From Caulobacterales bacterium (GTDB lineage: Bacteria; Pseudomonadota; Alphaproteobacteria; Caulobacterales; Aquidulcibacteraceae): a stretch of DNA of 64,000 nt. The stretch spans positions 22,167 to 86,166 of the forward strand of contig JAFLCU010000016.1 of the NCBI GenBank assembly GCA_017303355.1. Direction: 5' to 3'. The translations under genes and the position numbers were made by a program. This document shows positions 1,688 through 62,950 of this stretch, in pieces; position 1 is the first letter of the stretch, and each line of letters begins with the position of its first letter. The notes under the pieces were generated by a model. That model did no database searches and was not told the origin of the DNA. It worked only from the letters and a program-made list of their open reading frames with translations.

Positions 1688-3470
1688 GGTTGTTCTCCGC
1701 GAAGCCGAGGCGCTGCTGCGCGGCGGCGATGCGCTTGCCGCGGAGCGCAAGCTTGCGACGCTGTGGGCCGATACGCGTGACGCGCCGGGCGCGGCGCTTC
1801 ATTTGCTGGGCCTGATCCGGCTTGGGCAAAAGCGACACGCGGACGCCGAGCGCTTCCTGCGTCGCGCCATCGCCGCGGAGCCAGGTATCGCGCGCCATCA
1901 CGCGGCGCTTGCGGATGTGTTCGCGCAAGCGGGCGTCCACGCCGCCGCCGCCGATGCATACGCCGCCGCCCTCGCTCTCGACCCAGATTTTCCGAATGCG
2001 CGGCAGGCCTACGCGCGGGCGCTATTGGCCGCCGGCAAGAGCGCTGACGCGGAGCGCGAGCTGCGCTATTTGCTGCGCGACGCGCCGAGTGCTGATCTCT
2101 GGGATATGCTTTCGCGCGCGCTGCGGCAGCAGGACAAGCTTGAGCAATCCTTGGAGGCGTCGGACGCCGCTTTGGCGCTCGCGCCAAACAACAATTCTGC
2201 CGTGCACGGCCGCGCGACCGCGCTCTCGCGACTGGGCCGCAATGATGAAGCCATCGCGGCGTTCGATGGTCTTATCGCGCGCGGTGTGCAGGCGCCGCCC
2301 GTGTGGCTGCAGCGCGGCGTGGCGTTGCTCAATCAGACCCGTCACGCTGAAGCGGAGGCCGCGTTCGCGGATGGCGTGAAACGCTGGCCAAGTGATCAGC
2401 ACCTGCACGATGCATTGGCGCATACGCGATGGATGCGCGGGGCCGGCGCCGATTTTGCCCGCGATTTCGAGGCCGCCGTCGCCCGTCAACCGGACTCGAC
2501 GGCGCTTCGCCTCGCGTGCGCGAATCTGTTGCGCCGCGCCGACCAGCGCCAACGCGCCGAGCAGTTGCTGCGCGAAGGTATCACACGCACGCCGGACGAT
2601 CTGTGGCTGCAAATGTCGCTCGGCGTGCTGCTTGATGAACTCGACCGCACAAGCGAGGGACTGCCCTTGCTCCAAAGGGCGCTGACGCGCGCGCCGAACG
2701 TGCTCAATATTCGCGGCGCGGTGGTCAATGCACTGTTACGCCTCGGGCGCGGCGATGAAGCGTTGCGCGAGATCGAGCCCTGCCGCACCGCCGAACCTCT
2801 GAACCAGGAATGGATTTGCTACGAAGGCATGGCGCTGCGCCAACTCGGTGATCCGCGTTACAATGAATTGTGTGACTATGATTTGATGGTGCGGCCGTTC
2901 GATCTGCCGACGCCGCCGGGTTATGGCTCGCTGATGGAATTCAACGCGGCGCTGCGCGAAAGCCTGCTGAGCCTGCACGTGCTGGAAACGCATCCGCTGG
3001 ATCAGTCCTTGCGGCTTGGCTCACAGACCACGCGTTCATTGTTGACCATCGAGGACCCGGTCATTCGCGCTTATCTGGCGGCGCTGCGCGAGCCGATCCT
3101 GGCCTATACTGATCTCATGCGTGCGCCAAACCATCCCTGGAGCGGGCGCAAGACGGGCGGGTACAAGCTCTCGGGCGCCTGGTCGGTGAAGCTCAAGCCC
3201 CAGGGCTATCACATCAATCATTATCACCCGGCGGGCTGGATCAGCTCCGCCTACTACGTTTCCGTGCCCGAGGCAGCCGCTGGCGATGATCAGCAGGGTT
3301 GCATCAAATTCGGTGAAGCACGCTGGCCCACGCCTGGCATAACCACGGAGAAAGTGGTGCGGCCGCAGGTGGGGAGACTGGTTCTCTTTCCCTCCTATAT
3401 GTGGCACGGGACGATCCCGTTCTTGGAGGGGGAACGCATCACGGCGCCGTTCGACGCGCTGCCGGCCTGA
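1677..3470 (+). CDS. TPR-repeat protein with C-terminal putative 2OG-Fe(II) oxygenase domain (TIGR02466/PF13759-like)
   Basis: 597 aa. Long TPR region, then INHYHPAGWISSAYYVS ... LVLFPSYMWHGT ... RITAPFD. Paralogue of 1-963. Confidence 0.85.
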   Translation: MAPEVVLREAEALLRGGDALAAERKLATLWADTRDAPGAALHLLGLIRLGQKRHADAERFLRRAIAAEPGIARHHAALADVFAQAGVHAAAADAYAAALALDPDFPNARQAYARALLAAGKSADAERELRYLLRDAPSADLWDMLSRALRQQDKLEQSLEASDAALALAPNNNSAVHGRATALSRLGRNDEAIAAFDGLIARGVQAPPVWLQRGVALLNQTRHAEAEAAFADGVKRWPSDQHLHDALAHTRWMRGAGADFARDFEAAVARQPDSTALRLACANLLRRADQRQRAEQLLREGITRTPDDLWLQMSLGVLLDELDRTSEGLPLLQRALTRAPNVLNIRGAVVNALLRLGRGDEALREIEPCRTAEPLNQEWICYEGMALRQLGDPRYNELCDYDLMVRPFDLPTPPGYGSLMEFNAALRESLLSLHVLETHPLDQSLRLGSQTTRSLLTIEDPVIRAYLAALREPILAYTDLMRAPNHPWSGRKTGGYKLSGAWSVKLKPQGYHINHYHPAGWISSAYYVSVPEAAAGDDQQGCIKFGEARWPTPGITTEKVVRPQVGRLVLFPSYMWHGTIPFLEGERITAPFDALPA

Positions 3471-3493
3471 AGCGCGAAAAATTTGGAGATGGC

Positions 3494-4252
3494 ATGGATA
3501 CGGACGCGATTTTAACCGAGGCGGAAAGCGCCCTCCGCGGCGGCGATCTAAATGCCGCGGAGGCGGTGCTGACGAGGTCGTGGCCGGACATCGCGAAGAT
3601 GCCGGGCGATGCGTTGCACCTGCTGGCGGACATTCGCTTTCGAAGCGGTAAAGCGGCCGATGCGGAGAGTTTGCTGCGCGCGGCGACCAAGGTGGAGCCG
3701 GATTCTCAACGACACCACATTGCACTCGGCCACACCCTCGCGTCGGCTGGGAATTTCAAGGCGGCGTGCGAATCCTATCGGCGCGCGCTGCAGATCAACG
3801 AGGCTTGGCCAGGTCTTTTGCGGACACTGTCGCAGACCGCGCTGGACGCCGGCGACTTGGTCGAGGCTGAGCGCGCTGCTCGCCGTCTTATCGACACCGC
3901 GCCCACGGCGATGGCGTGGAGCGCCTTGTCCAGCGCGCTGCGTGCGCAAGCCAAAGGCGCGGAAGCGTTGGCGGCGGCCGATGAGGGGATTCGCCTCGAG
4001 CCGAACGAGCGGTCGGTCCAGCATAGCCGTGGCGCGAGCTTGCTTATGGTTGGGCGCGCGGCGGAGGCTCTGACCATCTTCCAGGAACTCGTTGCCAACG
4101 GTGTGCGCGAGCCGGTTCTGTCGGTCAATCACGGGACCGCTTTGTTGATGCTGGGGCGTCGCAGCGAGGCTGATGCTGTGTTTGACGACGCGTTGAAGCG
4201 TTGGCCGCACGCGCCGAACCTGCGCGCGCAGATTGCTGCCCGGCGCCGCTAG
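3494..4252 (+). CDS. TPR-repeat protein (no oxygenase domain)
   Basis: ATG at 3494 preceded by GGAGA. N-terminus MDTDAILTEAESALRGGDLNAAE parallels MAPEVVLREAEALLRGGDALAAE of the upstream paralogue. TPR only, then stop. Confidence 0.75.
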   Translation: MDTDAILTEAESALRGGDLNAAEAVLTRSWPDIAKMPGDALHLLADIRFRSGKAADAESLLRAATKVEPDSQRHHIALGHTLASAGNFKAACESYRRALQINEAWPGLLRTLSQTALDAGDLVEAERAARRLIDTAPTAMAWSALSSALRAQAKGAEALAAADEGIRLEPNERSVQHSRGASLLMVGRAAEALTIFQELVANGVREPVLSVNHGTALLMLGRRSEADAVFDDALKRWPHAPNLRAQIAARRR

Positions 4253-4323
4253 GGCGGGTGCTTGCTAGGGGCGGCGCGCACGGCTAACCCGGTTCCACGA
4301 CCGAACTGGGGAGCCTGCCGCTC

Positions 4324-5856
<1,533 letters not shown>

Positions 5857-26980: not shown

Positions 26981-27827
26981 GCCGCCGGCGCATCCGGAGC
27001 GCGGGGATTGGTCCGATCTCGGCGCGCGTATCGCGTCGGGCTTGGTGTTGGCCAGTCTGGGCGTCGCGGCGGCGTGGCTGGGCGGGCCGTGGCTTGCCGG
27101 CGCATGCGGCGCGGCTGTGGTCGCCATGAGTTACGAATGGGCGCGCATGAGCGAGCCTGAAGCATTGATGCCCGCGTTCTTGTTTTCACTCGCCGGGTCG
27201 TTGGGCGCGGTGCTGTTCGCGAGTTGGCAGCATCTTGGGTACGCTGTTCTATGGCTGACGGTTTGCTGTGTCGTGTCGGGCGCGCTTCGGCGCCGGACGT
27301 TTGTCGGTTTCATCGAAACCGCGGGCGGCGCCTTTTATATCGGACTGCCCGCGGCGCTGTTCCTCTGGCTCCGCAATCGCGCACCGGAGGGGCTTGAGAC
27401 GATCCTCGCGCTGTTCTTCGTGATCTGGGCTTCCGACATATTCGCGTATTTTGGCGGCAAGCTCATCGGCGGGCCTAAGATCGCGCGGGGGCTTTCGCCC
27501 AACAAGACCTGGGCCGGCATCATTGCCGGCGTGTTGGCTGGCGCGCTTGCGGGGCTTGGCTGTGGCCATCTGTTTCACGCAGGCGCGAACCTGCACATAT
27601 CCTGGTTTCTCATTGGCGCGCTGATCGCGTTCACGGGATTGATGGGCGACTTGTTCGAGTCATTCTTGAAGCGACGCTTTGGCGTGAAGGATGCGAGCCG
27701 GCTCATTCCGGGCCATGGCGGCGTGCTTGATCGCATCGATAGTTTGATGGCCGCGACGCTCCTGGTTGGCGCGGCTATGGCCTTCGGCCCGCGCGCGACT
27801 GCGCTGCTGTTTGGGAGCGGGCTGTGA
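26955..27827 (+). CDS. cdsA: phosphatidate cytidylyltransferase
   Basis: CDS signature SDIFAYFGGKLIGGPKI..SPNKTWAG and GHGGVLDRIDS. The start is uncertain: there is no ATG upstream of the conserved first TM region, so the in-frame TTG at 26955 was chosen. Confidence 0.75.
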   Translation, partial: GEQILSSPEPPAHPERGDWSDLGARIASGLVLASLGVAAAWLGGPWLAGACGAAVVAMSYEWARMSEPEALMPAFLFSLAGSLGAVLFASWQHLGYAVLWLTVCCVVSGALRRRTFVGFIETAGGAFYIGLPAALFLWLRNRAPEGLETILALFFVIWASDIFAYFGGKLIGGPKIARGLSPNKTWAGIIAGVLAGALAGLGCGHLFHAGANLHISWFLIGALIAFTGLMGDLFESFLKRRFGVKDASRLIPGHGGVLDRIDSLMAATLLVGAAMAFGPRATALLFGSGL

Positions 27828-29014
27828 CCGCGCGCAGCGTCTCCATCCTGGGCGTCACCGGCTCGATCGGCCAATCGACTAGGCGCGTCATTGAGGAGGT
27901 CCGCGCCCAGGGCGCTGAGATCCAAGTCGAGGCGGTGACCGCTGGCGCGAACTTGCCTGCGCTTGTTGAAGCCTGCCGGTCGCTGAGGCCTAGATTTGCG
28001 GCCGTCGCCGACCCCGCCTTGCTTTTGGACGCGCGCGACGCGCTGGCCCCGCTCGGCGTTGAGGTTGGTGCGGGTGTGGGGGCGTTGGAGGAGGCGGGCG
28101 CCCGGCGGGCTGATTGGGTGATGTCCGCCATCGTAGGGGCGGCGGGGCTGACGCCGACAATGGCCGCCGTTCGCCGAGGCGCCTCTGTTGCACTGGCGAA
28201 CAAGGAATGTCTGGTCTGCGCTGGCCCGCTCTTTATCGAGGCGGCCAAGGCGCACGGGGCGCGGCTGCTGCCGGTCGATTCAGAGCACAACGCCATCTTT
28301 CAGGTGCTCACGCATCCTGAACGGGTCGAGAAGCTGACGCTTACCGCCTCGGGCGGTCCTTTTCGGACCGCGAGCAAGGAAGCCATGGCCGTCGCCACCC
28401 CGGACCAGGCGTGCGCGCACCCGCGCTGGAGCATGGGGCGGAAGATTTCAGTCGATAGCGCCACCCTCATGAATAAGGGGCTGGAACTGATCGAAGCGTC
28501 GTATCTGTTTGGTTTTAAATCTGATTTAATCGACGTTCTGGTCCACCCGCAGAGCACCATCCATAGCCTCGTGCATTACGTCGATGGTTCCGTGCTCGCG
28601 CAAATGGCGACGCCGGATATGCGCATTCCGATCGCGTATGCGCTGGCGTGGCCGGATCGGGCGCTCGTATCGGCCGCGCGGCTCGACCTCGCCGGCGTCG
28701 GACAGCTCACGTTTGAGGCGCCTGACTCGGAGCGATTTCCCGCGCTAGGCTTGTGCCGGGCCGCGCTCAATCGAGGCGCGGCGGCCACCACCGCCATCAG
28801 CGCCGCCAACGAGATCGCCGTGGAGGCGTTTCTGTCCGGACGCATTGGTTTCCTCGACATTTGCCGCGTAGTCGAAGAGGCTATGAGCGAACTTGAGGGG
28901 GCTGAGTCAGGGCTTATCGCAAAATCGCCCACATCCTTCGATGAGGTGGCTGCGGTGGATCAGGCCGCGCGCGGCGCGGCACAACGGATTGCGGGAAGTC
29001 TGGCGGCAGCCTAA
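27824..29014 (+). CDS. dxr: 1-deoxy-D-xylulose-5-phosphate reductoisomerase
   Basis: SILGVTGSIGQST NADPH motif, LANKECLV, DSEHNAIFQ. Confidence 0.9.
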   Translation: MTARSVSILGVTGSIGQSTRRVIEEVRAQGAEIQVEAVTAGANLPALVEACRSLRPRFAAVADPALLLDARDALAPLGVEVGAGVGALEEAGARRADWVMSAIVGAAGLTPTMAAVRRGASVALANKECLVCAGPLFIEAAKAHGARLLPVDSEHNAIFQVLTHPERVEKLTLTASGGPFRTASKEAMAVATPDQACAHPRWSMGRKISVDSATLMNKGLELIEASYLFGFKSDLIDVLVHPQSTIHSLVHYVDGSVLAQMATPDMRIPIAYALAWPDRALVSAARLDLAGVGQLTFEAPDSERFPALGLCRAALNRGAAATTAISAANEIAVEAFLSGRIGFLDICRVVEEAMSELEGAESGLIAKSPTSFDEVAAVDQAARGAAQRIAGSLAAA

Positions 29015-58404: not shown

Positions 58405-61038
58405 GTGACGGCGAATTCTTCCCTCCAGAAGGCGCGCATGCGCGCGCGTTCCAGGCTCCTATCCGCGGAGGGTAATGGCGTCGTATTTGCGCACGAGACA
58501 GGCTACACGCCAGCGAATGACGCTGATGATTTCGCCCTTGGCGAAGGCGCAATGGATGCGGACATGCCGGCGGCCGATTTGGCGCCGGTGATCATCGAAG
58601 CGTTCGATCTCGGCGCCAATGAGCCGGACGAGCCACCGTTTGATCCTCCGGAGTTCGATGCGGCCGAAGACGAGTTGGCGCTCATTGTGGCGTCCGTGTC
58701 GGCGGCTGAAACGGCGAAAGCCGTTGATGCGGCGCCATTGGAAATCGCGGCCGAGCCCATAGACGCCTGTGGTGATGATGGTGAAGAAGCCGTTGACGCC
58801 GAAGGTTTCTACGAAGAGCCGCCGCCCTTCGACCCGCCGGACGAGGACGAAGAGCCGGCCGTCTTCTCCAAGGTGCGATTGCCGGCCTTGAACGAGACAG
58901 CGCCCGCCCCAGCTGAGTTGCTGCTTGTTAAATCAAGCACGGCAACCAGCGCGCCACGCTTGCCGCAACGCACATTGCTCCATTCCGACGAAACGGTGGA
59001 AGCGAAGGCGCCGCCGCAGCCTGTGCCGCCAATCAGCATTCATATCTTCTGGGACCGCGCGGAGATGGGCGCGGTGTTCGCGGCACTCGAAACGGATAAA
59101 CGCATGGCGCGCGCCAGCGGGGGCGCGGCCCGTGGTGGGTTGGACGCAGCCATTGCACGCTATAGCGATGAAGCGAGCCCCGATCTGCTCATCGTCGATA
59201 CCGATCTTGGCGTTCCTCAATTGCTGGTCGGCCTTGATCGTCTGGCCGAGGTGTTGGACGCGCGCACGCGGCTGATGATTGTGGGCGCGGTGAATGATAT
59301 CGGCCTGCTGCGTGAACTCGCACTGCGCGGCGTCAGCGAATATTTCGTACCGCCCGTCGGCGCCGATGCGATGGTGGAATCCATCTGCGCGTTGTTCGCG
59401 AGCGTGAACACGTCGCGTGTTGTCGCCGTCATGGGCGCGCGAGGTGGGGTCGGCTCATCGACTGTGGCGCAGAACATTGCGTGGTCGATCGCCGAGCGCC
59501 AGCAATTGGGCGCCGTGTTGGTTGATCTTGATATCGCTTTTGGCTCCGCGGCGTTTCACATGCAGCTGGGCGCTACGCCTACATTGGCCACAGCACTCGA
59601 AGCGCCCGAAGACCAAGCAGCGTTGGAGCGGAGCGTGACGCGCGCCTCGCCACGCTTCCAAATTCTTGCCGCGCCGGCGAACGTGGCGCCTGGCGCCGAC
59701 ATCGGTGTTGAAGCGCTCGCGGCGTTGATTGGCAACGCACGACGCATGAGCCCATATGTCGTACTCGATCTTCCGCATCATTGGGCGGGATGGGTGAAGC
59801 ATGCCTTGGCGCTTGCCGATGAGGTTCTCATTGTCTCCGCGCCTGATCTCGCGGGACTCGCGGCGACGAAGAACCTTTTGGAGCAGGCGAAGGTTGCGCG
59901 GCCAGGCGCCAGCGAACCTATGCTGGCGCTCTCGATGGTCGGCGTGGCGAAGCGACCGGAAATTCGCCTGAAGGATTTCGCGGAGGCCGCTGGGGTTGCG
60001 CCGATTGCTTCTATCGCTTTCGACCCGCTGAGTTTTGGCGAAGCATGCGGCACGGGCTTGATGCTCTGCGAGGCGGCGCCGAAATCACCCGCCGCGGCGA
60101 TGATGGACGCGATCGCAACAGTGCTGACAGGCCGCGAGGTGATCGCGCGCAAAACCCCGGTGCGCGAACGCTTTGTCACGCGCGTGGAAGCACCGACGAT
60201 TGCGCCTGTGGTTGAGCGGGTCGACGTGGCGTCTGGGCCCGATGTCACCAACGCGACGCCGCTTCCGGCGGTTGATCCAGCGCCGCTGGAATTGACCACG
60301 CTGGCGCCGCCACAGTCGCGCCCATCGCGTCGCGCGTGCAGCCGCGCGGCGGCGCGCCGACGCGATGAGGAACGCAAGCAACGTCCGCGCACGGCGCGGC
60401 CGGGGCTGGTGCGCGCGGCGTTGGCGGCGGTCACCTTGATCGCGCTCGGCGCCTGGTACGCGCAAAACGGCGCCGAGGCGACGACGACAAGCGCACCCGC
60501 GCCAGCGCCGGCGCCGATCGATTTGAACGAGCGTTATGCGGCCGCCGAAAGCATGCTGCGCAGCGGCGAGACCGGAGAGGCTGTTGCGTTGATGCAGCGC
60601 GTGGCGCAAGCCGGCTTGCCTGCGGCGCAGTATCGCTTGGCGAAATTCTATGAAGGCGGCGAAGTGCTTGCGCGCGATCTGGAGATCGCTCGCGCTTGGA
60701 CCGAGCGTGCGGCGCGCGGCGGCCATGCGCAAGCGATGCACGATCTTGGTGTTTATTATGCGCGTGGGGAGGGCGGCGTGCGCGACGATGCATCAGCGTT
60801 TCGCTGGTTCCGCCAGGCGGCGCAGCACGGTTTTGCGGATAGCCAGTACAATCTCGGCGTGATGTACGAGCAAGGGCGCGGCGTCAGCGCCAATGTGGAT
60901 GAAGCGCTGTTCTGGTTCACGCTTGCCGCAGGTAGTGGCGATGCGGATGCCGCCGCACGCGTCACCGCGATGGAAACGCTGGTGACGCCGATGCAGATCG
61001 AACAAGCGCAAGCGCGCGTCGCGGCGTTTGGCCACTGA
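58405..61038 (+). CDS. multidomain protein: acidic N-terminal region / CpaE-TadZ-like pseudo-receiver + ParA-MinD-type domain / TM helix / periplasmic Sel1 repeats
   Basis: 877 aa from GTG 58405 (alternative ATG 58438 after AGAAGG). Pseudo-receiver aa 210-335. VVAVMGARGGVGSSTVAQN...VLVDLD...YVVLDLP is CpaE/TadZ-like. TM helix LVRAALAAVTLIALGAWY (aa 668-685). Sel1 repeats (AQYRLAKFYEGG, AMHDLGVYYARGEG, SQYNLGVMYEQGRG). Confidence 0.8.
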   Translation: MTANSSLQKARMRARSRLLSAEGNGVVFAHETGYTPANDADDFALGEGAMDADMPAADLAPVIIEAFDLGANEPDEPPFDPPEFDAAEDELALIVASVSAAETAKAVDAAPLEIAAEPIDACGDDGEEAVDAEGFYEEPPPFDPPDEDEEPAVFSKVRLPALNETAPAPAELLLVKSSTATSAPRLPQRTLLHSDETVEAKAPPQPVPPISIHIFWDRAEMGAVFAALETDKRMARASGGAARGGLDAAIARYSDEASPDLLIVDTDLGVPQLLVGLDRLAEVLDARTRLMIVGAVNDIGLLRELALRGVSEYFVPPVGADAMVESICALFASVNTSRVVAVMGARGGVGSSTVAQNIAWSIAERQQLGAVLVDLDIAFGSAAFHMQLGATPTLATALEAPEDQAALERSVTRASPRFQILAAPANVAPGADIGVEALAALIGNARRMSPYVVLDLPHHWAGWVKHALALADEVLIVSAPDLAGLAATKNLLEQAKVARPGASEPMLALSMVGVAKRPEIRLKDFAEAAGVAPIASIAFDPLSFGEACGTGLMLCEAAPKSPAAAMMDAIATVLTGREVIARKTPVRERFVTRVEAPTIAPVVERVDVASGPDVTNATPLPAVDPAPLELTTLAPPQSRPSRRACSRAAARRRDEERKQRPRTARPGLVRAALAAVTLIALGAWYAQNGAEATTTSAPAPAPAPIDLNERYAAAESMLRSGETGEAVALMQRVAQAGLPAAQYRLAKFYEGGEVLARDLEIARAWTERAARGGHAQAMHDLGVYYARGEGGVRDDASAFRWFRQAAQHGFADSQYNLGVMYEQGRGVSANVDEALFWFTLAAGSGDADAAARVTAMETLVTPMQIEQAQARVAAFGH

Positions 61039-61095: not shown

Positions 61096-62499
61096 TTACG
61101 CTTTGTAGTACATGTCGAATTCCACCGGGTGCGGGTGGGTTTCGAAGCGATCGAGTTCTTCCTTCTTCAGATCGATATAGGCGTCGATCAGATCGTCGGT
61201 CATGACGCCGCCCTTCAGTAGGAAGTCGCGGTTGCGATCGAGCGAGGTGAGCGCTTCGCGCAGCGAACTCGCTACGTGCGGCACTTCCTTCAATTCTTCC
61301 GGCGGCAGGTCGTAGAGGTTCTTGTCGAGCGGATCGCCCGGATGGATCTTGTTTTGGATGCCATCGAGGCCCGCCATCAGCAGCGCGACATAGGTGAGGT
61401 ACATGTTGCCCGCCGGGTCGGGAAAGCGCACTTCCACGCGCTTGGCCTTCGCGCCCGTGCCGTGCGGAATGCGGCACGACGCCGAGCGGTTGCGCGCCGA
61501 GTAGGCGAGCAGCACCGGCGCTTCGTAGCCAGGCACCAGACGCTTGTACGAATTCGTCGTCGAGTTCGCGAACGCGTTAATCGCCTTCGCGTGCTTGATC
61601 ACGCCGCCGATGAAGAAGAGGCAGTTTTCGCTGAGATCGGCGTAGCGATCGCCCGCGAACGTGTTGTTACCACCTTTCCAGATCGACATGTGCACGTGCA
61701 TGCCCGAGCCGTTGTCCTTGAAATAGGGCTTCGGCATGAAGGTCGCGGACTTGCCGTACGATGCAGCCACTTGGTGGATGATGTACTTATACAAGTTCAT
61801 GTTGTCGGCCATCATCGTCAGCGTGTTGAACTTGAGGCCAAGTTCGTGCTGCGCGGGCGCGACTTCGTGGTGATGTTTTTCCGGGTTCAGGCCAAGCTGG
61901 CCCATGATTTCGAGCATCTCGCCGCGCATGTCTTGCAGCGAGTCGATCGGCGGCACTGGGAAATAGCCGCCCTTCGGGCCAGGCCGGTGGCCGAGATTGC
62001 CGCCCTCGTAGGTACGGTTCGTGTTGAAGGGCAATTCCGTGGAGTCGAACGAATAGCCCGTGTTGTGTGGGTCGGTTGACCAACGCACGTCGTCGAATAC
62101 GAAGAATTCCGCTTCGGGGCCGACATAGGCGACGTCGCCGGCGCCCGATGATTTCACATACGCTTCGGCGCGCTTGGCGATGCCGCGCGGACAGCGCGAA
62201 TAGGGCTGCAGCGTGCCGGGCTCAAGAATGTCGCAGAACATCGCCAGCGTCGTCTGCTGATAAAACGGGTCGATGTGCGCGCCTTTAGGGTCAGGGCGCA
62301 TGACCATGTCGGACTCATTGATGGCCTTCCAGCCGGCAATCGACGAGCCGTCGAACATCGTGCCTTCGGTGAAGATATCCTTGTCGATCATGCTGACGTC
62401 GAAAGTGACGTGCTGCATTTTACCGCGAAGGTCGTTGAAGCGCAGATCGACGTATTGGACTTCTTTGTCCTTGATCAGCTTCAGAATCTCGTCTGACAT
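61096..62499 (-). CDS. glnA: glutamine synthetase type I
   Basis: [23 protein letters not shown]-terminus, MHVHMS, and the adenylylation-loop region [12 protein letters not shown] at 62499 after GGTGGAG is preferred to GTG 62511. Confidence 0.95.
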
Positions 62500-62536
62500 C
62501 GGATACTCCACCGAGCGTTATTGTTGACGTTATTTA

Positions 62537-62569
62537 TGGGCTGCGCGCGGCTCGGTCCGACGCAGCCCA
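62537..62569 (-). other. intercistronic stem-loop between glnB and glnA
   Basis: TGGGCTGCG (62537-62545) pairs with CGCAGCCCA (62561-62569). On the mRNA strand it is followed by an A/T-rich stretch but no clean U-run. Confidence 0.5.
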
Positions 62570-62590
62570 GGAATCAGCATTGAGAAAGGA

Positions 62591-62950
<360 letters not shown>

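What the first reader, a model, noticed from the sequence alone, without database searches (positions are those of the whole stretch)
58405..61038. Orphan 877-aa fusion: acidic PPFDPP-repeat region + CpaE/TadZ-like module + TM + periplasmic Sel1 repeats
Seen, domain layout: (i) a very acidic N-terminal ~150 aa containing two copies of a PPFDPP[ED] motif (aa 77-83 and 140-146); (ii) a pseudo-receiver plus ParA/MinD-type domain of the CpaE/TadZ kind (aa ~210-580); (iii) an Arg-rich stop-transfer segment and one TM helix (nt 60406-60459); (iv) a Pro/Ala linker and about three Sel1 repeats (nt ~60616-60954), predicted periplasmic. Seen, Walker A: the P-loop reads GARGGVGSST (nt 59434-59463). Arg stands where ParA/TadZ proteins have the signature Lys, and there is no GK[ST] lysine, so ATP hydrolysis may be lost. 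Seen, context: no tad/cpa pilus genes are in the window; the flanks are eno and glnA. Established: CpaE/TadZ proteins are polar-localising hubs for Tad/Cpa pilus assembly. In Caulobacter their polar placement depends on PodJ, a bitopic protein with a cytoplasmic region, one TM and periplasmic TPR/Sel1-like repeats. Inference: this ORF looks like a Rosetta-stone fusion of a CpaE-like module onto a PodJ-like membrane/periplasmic anchor, that is, a possible self-anchoring polarity or positioning scaffold. The repeated PPFDPP motif could be a short linear docking motif.
Basis: partly seen in the sequence, partly recalled or inferred. Interest (0 to 1): 0.65.

Follow-up and report, generated by a model that had tools for sequence, protein, structure and literature searches.

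The report
Membrane-anchored CpaE paralog, PodJ-like tail
This gene is a real, conserved extra copy of the pilus-positioning protein CpaE whose loose membrane-binding tail has been replaced by a true membrane anchor and a periplasmic domain most like that of the polarity protein PodJ, so one protein joins two parts that are known to work together as separate proteins in Caulobacter.

Summary
It is not an orphan: more than 110 proteins share the architecture, all from the Vitreimonas/Terricaulis clade (Aquidulcibacteraceae). It is a paralog of canonical CpaE/TadZ. In a tree of the receiver+ATPase core the fused proteins are monophyletic (199/200) and nested in that clade's canonical CpaEs (196/200), and they evolve about 5x faster. 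One isolate and four MAGs carry both a complete cpa/tad locus with its own cpaE and the fused gene elsewhere. The 'odd' Walker A is not a defect of the fusion: all CpaEs examined lack the GK[ST] lysine, and the Arg is shared with the clade's canonical CpaEs. The P-loop is nearly invariant. Canonical CpaEs end in a MinD-like amphipathic tail; the fused protein has a linker, one TM helix (N-in) and three Sel1 repeats instead. The best matches of those repeats in rhizobial replicons are PodJ periplasmic domains (43-45% identity). The PPFD[PA]P motif is conserved family-wide and occurs once in the clade's canonical CpaEs. The likely role, inferred and not shown, is a bitopic trans-envelope scaffold for placing the Tad pilus or another polar organelle. 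It is a new variant of a known kind.

The parts
58405..61038 (+). Whole ORF, 877 aa, GTG start, stop at 61036-61038
   Evidence: Identical in an independent Logan contig (L001). Intact in assemblies from four studies.
58429..58455 (+). Extreme N-terminal basic motif KARMRARSR (aa 9-17; family consensus [QK]KAR-x-R-[AS]-R)
   Evidence: Conserved at the N-termini of fused members. It supports the GTG start over the ATG at codon 12 used in the 866-aa database call (P0001).
58465..59016 (+). Acidic, intrinsically disordered region (aa 21-204)
   Evidence: 44 D/E against 12 K/R in aa 1-204. pLDDT below 50. Family pairwise identity 0.31 with many gaps.
58525..58542 (+). DDFALG (aa 41-46), a vestige of the canonical CpaE N-terminal motif [DE][DE]F[AVMIL]L[EGDN]
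   Evidence: The motif is present in 108 of 120 canonical clade CpaEs but in only 8 of 110 fused members.
58633..58653 (+). PPFDPPE motif, copy 1 (aa 77-83)
   Evidence: Local pLDDT rise. Window identity 0.59.
58822..58842 (+). PPFDPPD motif, copy 2 (aa 140-146)
   Evidence: Nearly invariant columns P141, F142, D143 and P145.
59017..59403 (+). Atypical receiver domain (ARD) of CpaE/TadZ type (aa 205-333)
   Evidence: PDB 4n0p, E=3e-24. Foldseek TM-score 0.91, rmsd about 1.1 A, 42% identity to Caulobacter CpaE CC_2943. pLDDT above 90.
59404..60144 (+). ParA/MinD-type atypical ATPase domain (AAD; aa 334-580), ending in the conserved LTGR
   Evidence: Pfam ParA and AAA_31. PDB 3ea0, TM-score 0.88; 3fkq (TadZ) aligned over 378 columns spanning both domains.
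59434..59463 (+). Deviant Walker A, GARGGVGSST (aa 344-353). Arg346 stands at the MinD K11 'signature' position and Ser351 at the K16 position.
   Evidence: G347, G348, G350 and S352 are invariant and R346 nearly invariant.
60145..60324 (+). Disordered cytoplasmic linker (aa 581-640). It takes the place of the amphipathic C-terminal tail of canonical CpaE.
   Evidence: pLDDT below 50. Identity 0.24. Canonical tails ...KIPFLKR and ...KSFIKKLLGK follow directly after LTGR.
60325..60402 (+). Arg-rich juxtamembrane helix (aa 641-666)
   Evidence: Helix 641-659. 13 K/R in the 30 residues before the TM.
60403..60471 (+). Single transmembrane helix (aa 667-689), N-in/C-out
   Evidence: Kyte-Doolittle 19-mer score 1.73. 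It is the only strongly hydrophobic segment after the ATPase domain. Positive-inside rule met in 78 of 82 members. Helix 669-689.
60472..60522 (+). Periplasmic Thr/Pro/Ala linker (aa 690-706)
   Evidence: pLDDT below 50. A natural in-frame 6-nt deletion lies here in a variant strain.
60523..61035 (+). Periplasmic Sel1 domain (aa 707-877): an N-terminal capping helix pair, three Sel1 repeats and a C-terminal capping pair. No PG-binding domain.
   Evidence: Pfam Sel1, E=1.8e-24. pLDDT about 97. Most conserved region of the family, identity 0.58. Best matches are PodJ periplasmic domains.

Best explanation
The gene encodes a lineage-specific, membrane-anchored paralog of the Tad-pilus positioning protein CpaE/TadZ.

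Shown:
- It arose by duplication of the canonical cpaE of the Vitreimonas/Terricaulis lineage (Aquidulcibacteraceae). The duplication came after that lineage had changed the Walker-A signature Lys to Arg and gained an N-terminal PPFD motif.
- The copy left the cpa locus.
- It lost the short basic amphipathic C-terminal tail of canonical CpaE. In its place it has a disordered linker, an Arg-rich helix, one TM helix and a periplasmic three-repeat Sel1 domain. The closest relatives of that domain found here are PodJ periplasmic domains.
- It expanded its acidic N-terminal disordered region and multiplied the PPFD[PA]P motif to 1-3 copies.
- It coexists with a complete cpa locus that keeps its own cpaE.

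Inferred:
- It works as a bitopic trans-envelope scaffold.
- In the cytoplasm it keeps CpaE-type behaviour. This means nucleotide-dependent dimerisation through an invariant P-loop, possibly also with canonical CpaE. It also means ARD-mediated localisation and docking of a shared partner through PPFD[PA]P motifs.
- In the periplasm its Sel1 domain binds a conserved envelope ligand, such as the secretin/pilotin complex or a cell-wall component. PodJ's TPR/Sel1 domain is proposed to do the same for CpaC in Caulobacter.
- The net effect would be to fix where the Tad machine, or another polar envelope machine, assembles.
For: Identity and origin:
- Domain hits and fold matches to Caulobacter CpaE ARD, a ParA ATPase and TadZ 3fkq.
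- More than 110 homologs with the same layout.
- NJ tree: fused clade monophyletic in 199/200 replicates and nested within the Arg-type canonical CpaEs in 196/200.
- Shared derived characters: GARGG P-loop and PPFD in both paralogs, against GAKGG and no PPFD in Hyphomonas, Ponticaulis and Henriciella.

Coexistence:
- Isolate U9-1i has both genes about 21 kb apart on one contig.
- Four MAGs have both.
- Canonical copies sit in flp-cpaA-B-C-D-E-F-tadB-tadC loci.

Tail replacement: canonical CpaEs end ...KIPFLKR or ...KSFIKKLLGK right after LTGR.

Topology.

Constraint:
- Sel1 0.58, PPFDPP windows 0.58-0.59, AAD 0.52 and ARD 0.48, against 0.24-0.31 for the disordered and linker parts.
- Invariant P-loop, DxD and Walker B residues.
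- 12 synonymous to 5 non-synonymous strain SNPs.

PodJ link:
- The Sel1 domain's best matches are PodJ homologs.
- PodJ directly recruits CpaE (PMC9684454).
- PodJ's periplasmic TPR domain is needed for pili and is proposed to chaperone CpaC and to relay the signal from the cytoplasmic scaffold to the outer membrane (PMC12637624).

Precedent for TadZ fusions that link to a polar hub: Bdellovibrio TadZA-RomR.
Against: - No experimental data exist for any family member.
- The gene is never next to cpa genes and has no conserved neighbour. Contexts include glnA, the dcw cluster, RNR, AspRS and rpoN.
- Its core evolves about 5x faster than canonical CpaE, which fits a changed function as well as it fits a relaxed or adaptive interface.
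- PodJ similarity is limited to the Sel1 repeats. The juxtamembrane/TM profile does not hit PodJ, and the PG-binding and coiled-coil parts are absent.
- The PodJ comparison used a plasmid/chromid collection, not complete proteomes.
- The clade's cpa loci already have a TadD/CpaO-type TPR lipoprotein, so a secretin-chaperone role is not obviously vacant.
- No CtrA box lies upstream.
- AF2 gives no confident docking of the PPFD motif.
Confidence: 0.55

Rival explanations
1. Strict Rosetta-stone replacement. The protein is a chimera of cpaE and the 3' part of podJ. It replaces a lost PodJ in this clade and acts as the self-anchoring polar landmark for the Tad pilus.
For: The Sel1 domain's best matches are PodJ periplasmic domains. 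The bitopic layout is the same, with an Arg-rich juxtamembrane segment. PodJ recruits CpaE directly. The family is confined to one clade.
Against: The juxtamembrane/TM profile does not match rhizobial PodJ. No PG-binding domain or coiled coils are present. Whether the clade lacks podJ could not be tested: supplements lack the data and the representative search was uninformative. Sel1 repeats are so common (209,109 hits) that convergence or another donor cannot be excluded.
Confidence: 0.2
2. Neofunctionalised paralog unrelated to pili. It would be a membrane-anchored ParA/MinD-like positioning protein for another envelope process, such as division, prosthecal budding, holdfast or flagellum. 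It would keep only the CpaE fold.
For: It is never in a cpa locus and has variable housekeeping contexts. In U9-1i it lies directly upstream of the dcw cluster. Its core evolves about 5x faster. It has lost the canonical DDFVLE motif in 102 of 110 members. The clade includes prosthecate, budding species.
Against: It retains the PPFD motif shared with canonical CpaE, the ARD and all nucleotide-site residues. This suggests a shared partner or heterodimerisation. Every genome in which both genes could be looked for has a cpa locus too. The dcw adjacency is seen in one genome only.
Confidence: 0.25
3. Regulatory sensor or sequestrator. The periplasmic Sel1 domain senses an envelope signal, as ExoR-type Sel1 proteins do. 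The cytoplasmic CpaE-like module would then titrate or release canonical CpaE, or the PPFD-binding partner, to switch pilus assembly on or off.
For: The Sel1 domain is the most conserved region. There are weak NCBIfam similarities to ExoR and MotX. Multiple PPFD copies could out-compete the single copy of canonical CpaE. The permanent membrane anchor contrasts with the canonical amphipathic tail.
Against: There is no evidence of signalling domains or regulated proteolysis sites. ExoR similarity is far below the cut-off (29 bits against 450). It cannot be told apart from the scaffold model with sequence data.
Confidence: 0.12
4. Artefact: a frameshift or mis-assembly joining two genes, or a decaying pseudogene.
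For: None found. The database start call differs (866 against 877 aa).
Against: More than 110 independent homologs share the architecture. There is an identical independent contig. The frame is intact in four studies' assemblies, with 12 synonymous to 5 non-synonymous SNPs and only an in-frame indel. Functional residues are invariant.
Confidence: 0.01

Closest known systems
CpaE/TadZ (Caulobacter CC_2943; Aggregatibacter TadZ; PDB 4n0p, 3fkq)
   Same: Acidic N-terminus, then an atypical receiver domain, then a ParA/MinD-type domain whose Walker A lacks the P-loop lysine. It nests phylogenetically inside CpaE. It shares the PPFD motif and the Arg-type P-loop with the canonical CpaEs of its own clade.
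   Different: It is not encoded in a cpa/tad locus. It is about 400 aa longer. The C-terminal amphipathic tail is replaced by a linker, a TM helix and a periplasmic Sel1 domain. It has 1-3 PPFD[PA]P copies and an extra N-terminal basic motif. It has mostly lost the DDFVLE motif. It evolves about 5x faster.
PodJ (polar organelle development protein; Caulobacter, Sinorhizobium PodJ1)
   Same: Bitopic with the N-terminus in the cytoplasm, a disordered cytoplasmic region next to a basic juxtamembrane segment, and a periplasmic three-repeat Sel1/TPR domain with a capping helix (43-45% identity to rhizobial PodJ). PodJ is the known recruiter of CpaE and is needed for Tad pili.
   Different: It has no coiled-coil cytoplasmic domain and no C-terminal PG-binding domain. 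There is no detectable similarity in the juxtamembrane or TM part. Its cytoplasmic part is a CpaE module instead.
MinD
   Same: The same ATPase fold family and membrane association at the C-terminus. The canonical CpaE tail KSFIKKLLGK resembles, from my recollection of the E. coli MinD sequence (about KKGFLKRLFGG), its amphipathic membrane-targeting sequence.
   Different: The Walker A lacks both lysines. The membrane attachment is an integral TM helix, so nucleotide-switched membrane cycling of the MinD type is not possible for the fused protein.
Bdellovibrio TadZA (TadZ-TadA fusion; bioRxiv 10.64898/2026.07.08.737194)
   Same: A natural fusion of a TadZ module to another Tad-related part. 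Its TadZ region contacts a polar hub (RomR), which shows the modularity of Tad positioning.
   Different: That fusion is to the cytoplasmic motor ATPase, lacks the ARD and stays in the tad locus. This one keeps the ARD, is fused to a membrane/periplasmic anchor and lies outside the locus.
Actinobacterial CpaE homolog Ssd (TIGR03815)
   Same: It is the best NCBIfam hit (54 bits).
   Different: The score is far below the family cut-off (154 bits). The lineage and architecture differ. This is not a member.

Membership tests
CpaE/TadZ | [quoted passage not shown] | tested here: met
   PDB 4n0p, E=3e-24, aa 205-333. Foldseek TM-score 0.91, rmsd about 1.1 A, 42% identity.
CpaE/TadZ | ParA/MinD-type domain with an atypical Walker A lacking the canonical P-loop lysine | tested here: met
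   GARGGVGSST. Canonical CpaEs read GAKGG[CTV]G[AS]S[TV]. The signature Lys is Arg here and also in the clade's canonical CpaEs. Fold match 3ea0, TM-score 0.88; 3fkq over both domains.
CpaE/TadZ | Phylogenetic placement within the CpaE clade | tested here: met
   NJ tree of 87 cores. Fused plus Arg-type canonical CpaEs are monophyletic in 196/200 replicates. This used NJ only; maximum likelihood was not run.
CpaE/TadZ | Encoded in a tad/cpa locus between cpaD and cpaF | tested here: not met
   No cpa gene is in the window or next to any of 16 fused loci. Canonical copies occupy that position.
CpaE/TadZ | Polar localisation and requirement for secretin and pilus assembly | not testable with these tools
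   Needs microscopy and genetics.
PodJ | Bitopic, N-in, with a periplasmic Sel1/TPR domain | tested here: met
   Single TM. K+R 7.7 before against 1.9 after, in 78 of 82 members. Sel1 x3.
PodJ | Sel1 domain specifically related to PodJ's | tested here: inconclusive
   The best matches in the plasmid/chromid collection are PodJ of Sinorhizobium and Neorhizobium (43-45% identity; BLASTP 101 bits, E=3e-29). No whole-proteome or Caulobacterales PodJ comparison was possible.
PodJ | Cytoplasmic coiled-coil domain | tested here: not met
   The cytoplasmic part is IDR + ARD + AAD. Only the Sel1 region of Neorhizobium PodJ (aa 1044-1234) aligns to the fused genes. A query of its first 900 residues found nothing in the loci.
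PodJ | C-terminal peptidoglycan-binding domain | tested here: not met
   The protein ends at the Sel1 capping helix. No PG_binding_1 hit. PodJ ORFs have the domain.
PodJ | Juxtamembrane/TM homology | tested here: not met
   An HMM of the family's juxtamembrane + TM segment gives no significant hit to rhizobial PodJ.
MinD/ParA proper | Deviant Walker A xKGGxxK[ST] with both lysines | tested here: not met
   Arg and Ser stand at the two lysine positions. minD_bact scores 39 bits against a cut-off of 213.
Sel1 repeat (PF08238) | Score above the Pfam gathering threshold | tested here: met
   85.7 bits against 30.7, three stretches.

The most novel reading that the evidence does not exclude
The fused protein is itself the polar landmark of Aquidulcibacteraceae. 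It would be a one-polypeptide equivalent of the Caulobacter PodJ-CpaE axis, and its periplasmic Sel1 domain would define the assembly site. PPFD[PA]P would be a previously unrecognised docking motif through which both CpaE paralogs bind one shared hub, or through which the anchored paralog captures the soluble one.
Probability: 0.2. Interest if true: 0.7.

Novelty: new variant of a known kind. Interest (0 to 1): 0.5.

Why it matters
In Caulobacter the first step of Tad-pilus assembly is a cytoplasmic PodJ-CpaE scaffold that somehow instructs secretin assembly in the outer membrane. How that signal crosses the envelope is an open question (PMC12637624).

A natural, conserved fusion of a CpaE module to a PodJ-like periplasmic domain is independent comparative evidence that these two parts act together. 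It also offers a simpler system for dissecting the link.

The family points to three testable elements:
- A conserved short motif, PPFD[PA]P, shared by anchored and soluble CpaE.
- A MinD-like amphipathic tail on canonical CpaE.
- An Arg-type P-loop that is under strong constraint.

None of these is described for CpaE in the papers I could search.

Tried and rejected
1. 'The fused Sel1 domain replaces a missing TPR pilotin': rejected. TadD/CpaO-like TPR lipoproteins sit next to tadC in Arg-type loci (L005, L013, L026, L091) and in Hyphomonas (L075).
2. 'PodJ homology extends through the membrane': an HMM of the juxtamembrane + TM segment gave no significant PodJ hit.
3. A representative search with the Sel1 domain, meant to find clade PodJs, was swamped by giant multi-repeat Sel1 proteins (209,109 hits). 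It was uninformative.
4. Conserved operon partner: none. The glnA adjacency is limited to the Vitreimonas subgroup. Neighbours elsewhere are unrelated housekeeping genes.
5. CtrA box or GANTC upstream of fused genes: none. No sigma-70-like promoter was found by consensus scan.
6. PodJ presence or absence in the clade from the literature: not in the text or the held supplements of PMC12700997.
7. The AF2 model of canonical CpaE was of low confidence (pLDDT 68). It gave no confident tail helix and no docking of the PPFD motif.
8. The primary TadZ paper (PMC3305808) is not held, so statements about the TadZ Walker-A lysine rest on secondary citation (PMC10482377) and on my memory.


Full report
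**Observation**

The ORF at 58405..61038 (+) is 877 aa with a GTG start.
- The first 204 residues hold 44 D/E against 12 K/R. They contain PPFDPPE (aa 77-83) and PPFDPPD (aa 140-146).
- Residues 205-333 match the solved N-terminal domain of Caulobacter CpaE (4n0p, E=3e-24) and of Sinorhizobium CpaE2 (4myr).
- Residues 334-580 match ParA/MinD ATPases.
- Residues about 740-850 give three Sel1 repeats.

An AlphaFold2 model built on 83 family sequences shows the following:
- aa 1-204 disordered, with small confidence rises at the two motifs
- aa 205-580 at pLDDT above 90
- a disordered linker at 585-640
- a helix at 641-659
- a TM helix at 669-689
- a Sel1 solenoid at 707-876, pLDDT about 97

Foldseek returns Caulobacter CpaE ARD (TM-score 0.91, 42% identity), a ParA ATPase (3ea0, TM-score 0.88) and the two-domain TadZ structure 3fkq.

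The Walker A is GARGGVGSST at nt 59434-59463. No CpaB, CpaC, CpaD, CpaF or TadB homolog is in the window. The neighbours are rpmF, eno, glnA and glnB.

**The gene is real**

An independent contig is identical. Assemblies from four different wastewater or sludge studies cover the gene. A variant strain differs by 12 synonymous and 5 non-synonymous substitutions and a single in-frame 6-nt deletion in the AP-rich linker.

**It is not an orphan**

A search of 5.8 billion proteins found 184 relatives. The best 120 are listed, and about 110 of them are 710-1130 aa with the same ParA+Sel1 layout at 39-82% identity. The named ones come from Vitreimonas flagellata, Terricaulis, alphaproteobacterium U9-1i and Hyphomonadaceae or Caulobacterales MAGs. 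This clade has recently been named Aquidulcibacteraceae, sister to Hyphomonadaceae (PMC12700997). GlnA and GlnB of the window are 97-98% identical to those of V. flagellata. The window organism is therefore a relative of Vitreimonas, from activated sludge.

**It is a paralog, not the locus's own CpaE**

- Two shorter hits (P0120, P0113; 485-486 aa, no Sel1) lie between cpaD and cpaF in complete flp-cpaA-B-C-D-E-F-tadB-tadC loci.
- A scan of species-representative genomes with a core-module alignment returned 80 loci.
- tblastn classification split them cleanly. In 13 loci the module is followed by Sel1, and none of these has a cpa neighbour. L050 and L078 are also of the fused type by motif and tree, but no Sel1 was detected in them. 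The rest sit in cpa loci.
- Four assemblies hold both kinds: ES-bin-98, PRO2, Terricaulis H10.93 and SMAG_U12079.
- In the isolate U9-1i both genes are on one contig about 21 kb apart.

**Origin**

- In an NJ tree of 87 cores rooted with Sinorhizobium CpaE1 and CpaE2, the fused proteins form one clade (199/200 bootstraps).
- This clade nests within the canonical CpaEs of the same lineage (196/200).
- Two derived characters agree with the tree. Canonical CpaEs of Hyphomonas, Ponticaulis, Henriciella and Robiginitomaculum read GAKGGVG[AS]ST and have no PPFD. Canonical CpaEs of the Vitreimonas/Terricaulis lineage read GARGG[VI]GAST and carry one PPFD near residue 35-43. The fused proteins read GARGGVGAST and carry 1-3 PPFD[PA]P[DE].
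- For the same pairs of genomes the fused cores are 0.65-0.91 substitutions per site apart, against 0.11-0.18 for the canonical ones.

**Walker A**

- Arg346 stands at the MinD K11 'signature' position and Ser351 at the K16 position, which can be read directly from the sequence.
- The second lysine is missing from every CpaE examined, including Sinorhizobium CpaE1 and CpaE2 (GAKGGCGSSV, GAKGGTGSST).
- The Arg is shared with canonical CpaEs that sit in intact cpa loci.
- Within the fused family G347, G348, G350, S352, the DxD motif (D374, D376) and the Walker B Asp (D455) are invariant or nearly so, despite the fast overall rate.
- E. rectale TadZ is reported to have ATPase activity without either lysine (cited in PMC10482377).

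The P-loop is therefore a constrained, clade-typical CpaE site. It is not evidence of decay.

**What changed at the C-terminus**

All canonical CpaEs end 17-20 residues after the conserved LTGR with a basic amphipathic tail. In the Arg-type clade it reads ...KKxSLxDKIPFLKR and in Hyphomonas ...EKSFIKKLLGK. It resembles the MinD membrane-targeting sequence as I recall it, which is a resemblance from memory and not a test. AF2 gave only weak helical turns there.

In the fused proteins LTGR is followed by a remnant of the first few tail residues, a 60-90-aa disordered linker, an Arg-rich helix, a single TM helix, a Pro/Ala linker and the Sel1 domain. K+R averages 7.7 in the 30 residues before the TM and 1.9 after it, and 78 of 82 members have more before than after. 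There is no second hydrophobic segment. The topology is therefore N-in/C-out, with Sel1 in the periplasm.

**PodJ likeness**

- The Sel1 domain (aa 700-877) was searched against 72,556 plasmid and chromid records. 667 of them hold Sel1-like matches.
- The best-covered matches are in Sinorhizobium and Neorhizobium replicons.
- Both are PodJ homologs. The Neorhizobium ORF is 1305 aa with coiled coil, TM, three Sel1 repeats and a PG-binding domain. The Sinorhizobium ORF is the same but split by a frameshift.
- The alignment is gap-free over three repeats and the capping helix (43% identity, 101 bits, E=3e-29).
- In the reverse direction, only the Sel1 part of PodJ matches, and it matches all the fused proteins.
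- A profile of the juxtamembrane + TM segment does not hit PodJ. The fused protein has no PG-binding domain and no coiled coils.

The PodJ-like claim is therefore supported for the Sel1 domain only, and on a biased collection.

**N-terminal motifs**

- Exact PPFD occurs 140 times in 92 of 110 N-termini, against 1.5 expected (maximum 6 in 500 shuffles). PPFD[PA]P occurs 124 times against 0.08 expected.
- The 18 members that seem to lack it carry A/M/L-PFD[PA]P.
- The consensus is [DE][DE][ED]E-P-P-F-D-[PA]-P-[DE]-x-[DE]-D-[LI].
- The motif windows are 0.58-0.59 identical, within a region that averages 0.31.
- Canonical clade CpaEs also have a strongly conserved DDFVLE-type motif upstream of PPFD (108 of 120). 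The fused proteins have mostly lost it (8 of 110; the window keeps DDFALG at aa 41-46).
- Fused proteins share an extreme N-terminal basic motif, [QK]KAR-x-R-[AS]-R. This supports the GTG start.

**Context**

The glnA adjacency is confined to the Vitreimonas subgroup. In U9-1i the gene lies directly upstream of rsmH-ftsL-ftsI-murE-murF-mraY. Elsewhere the neighbours are RNR, AspRS, a TonB receptor, a K+/H+ antiporter or rpoN. There is no conserved partner gene and no CtrA box.

**Mechanism**

The shown steps are the paralogy, the architecture, the topology, the pattern of constraint and the coexistence with a cpa locus. The rest is inference.

Three published points bear on it:
- PodJ's disordered region directly recruits CpaE (PMC9684454).
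- CpaE is needed for secretin localisation (PMC12637624).
- PodJ's periplasmic TPR/Sel1 part is needed for pili and is proposed to chaperone CpaC and to relay the cytoplasmic signal outward (PMC12637624).

Given these, the most economical reading is a bitopic scaffold that joins CpaE-type cytoplasmic contacts to a periplasmic Sel1 contact. Those cytoplasmic contacts would be nucleotide-dependent dimerisation (possibly with canonical CpaE), the ARD and multivalent PPFD docking.

Rivals are a neofunctionalised positioning protein for another envelope process, a sensor or sequestrator, and a strict PodJ replacement. I could not determine whether these genomes still encode PodJ.

**Novelty**

The searches I ran in the held library turned up no description of a CpaE-TM-Sel1 protein. 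Databases label the family 'AAA family ATPase' or 'pilus assembly protein CpaE'. The nearest precedent for a TadZ fusion is Bdellovibrio TadZA. I rate this a new variant of a known kind, of moderate interest.

Noticed in passing
L005, L009-L088 (canonical cpaE 3' ends), e.g. L075:11120-11179: All canonical CpaEs examined end in a short basic amphipathic tail right after LTGR (...KIPFLKR or ...KSFIKKLLGK). It looks like a MinD-type membrane-targeting sequence. I know of no description of this for CpaE.
   Followed up: partly
window 58429-58455; L002 about 9953-10000: A conserved N-terminal basic motif, [QK]KAR-x-R-[AS]-R, lies upstream of the database start calls. The window's own 866-aa call (P0001) cuts through it, and the V. 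flagellata annotation (P0037, 888 aa) omits it. Both starts are probably too far downstream.
   Followed up: partly
window 28515-28529: A single perfect CtrA-box-like site, TTAAATCTGATTTAA (0.04 expected in shuffles). It lies within or near ORFs 27824-29014 (+) and 28576-28932 (-).
   Followed up: no
L092 (U9-1i, BBSY01000002.1: 1681232-1699940): In isolate U9-1i the fused gene lies directly upstream of the dcw cluster (rsmH-ftsL-ftsI-murE-murF-mraY) and about 21 kb from the cpa locus.
   Followed up: partly
L078:3320-5302: A fused-type member (GSRGGVGAST, PPFDPPD, hit to the juxtamembrane/TM profile) that stops after the TM region, with no Sel1 domain detectable downstream. It is either a natural truncated variant or a local error.
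   Followed up: no
L089 (Sinorhizobium sp. K101 'plasmid pK101a', 3.5 Mb) 1892-5729: The podJ homolog is split by a frameshift into 1061-aa and 260-aa ORFs. The 3.5-Mb 'plasmid' record is chromosome-sized and nearly unannotated.
   Followed up: no
window 61096-62929, compared with L002, L004 and L047: GlnA and GlnB are 97-98% identical to those of Vitreimonas flagellata, while the adjacent YjeF-like gene is 69% identical and the fused protein's core 45-48%. This is a very uneven rate of divergence across neighbouring genes.
   Followed up: partly
window 60484-60510 (aa 694-702): The SAPAPAPAP periplasmic linker carries a natural in-frame 6-nt deletion in a co-occurring strain, seen in two other studies' assemblies.
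   Followed up: yes
L039:10001-12085 and L028 about 10789-12714: In some canonical loci my crude ORF calls run cpaE into cpaF, or give odd overlapping antisense ORFs. These are probably frameshifts in MAG assemblies or high-GC ORF artefacts.
   Followed up: no
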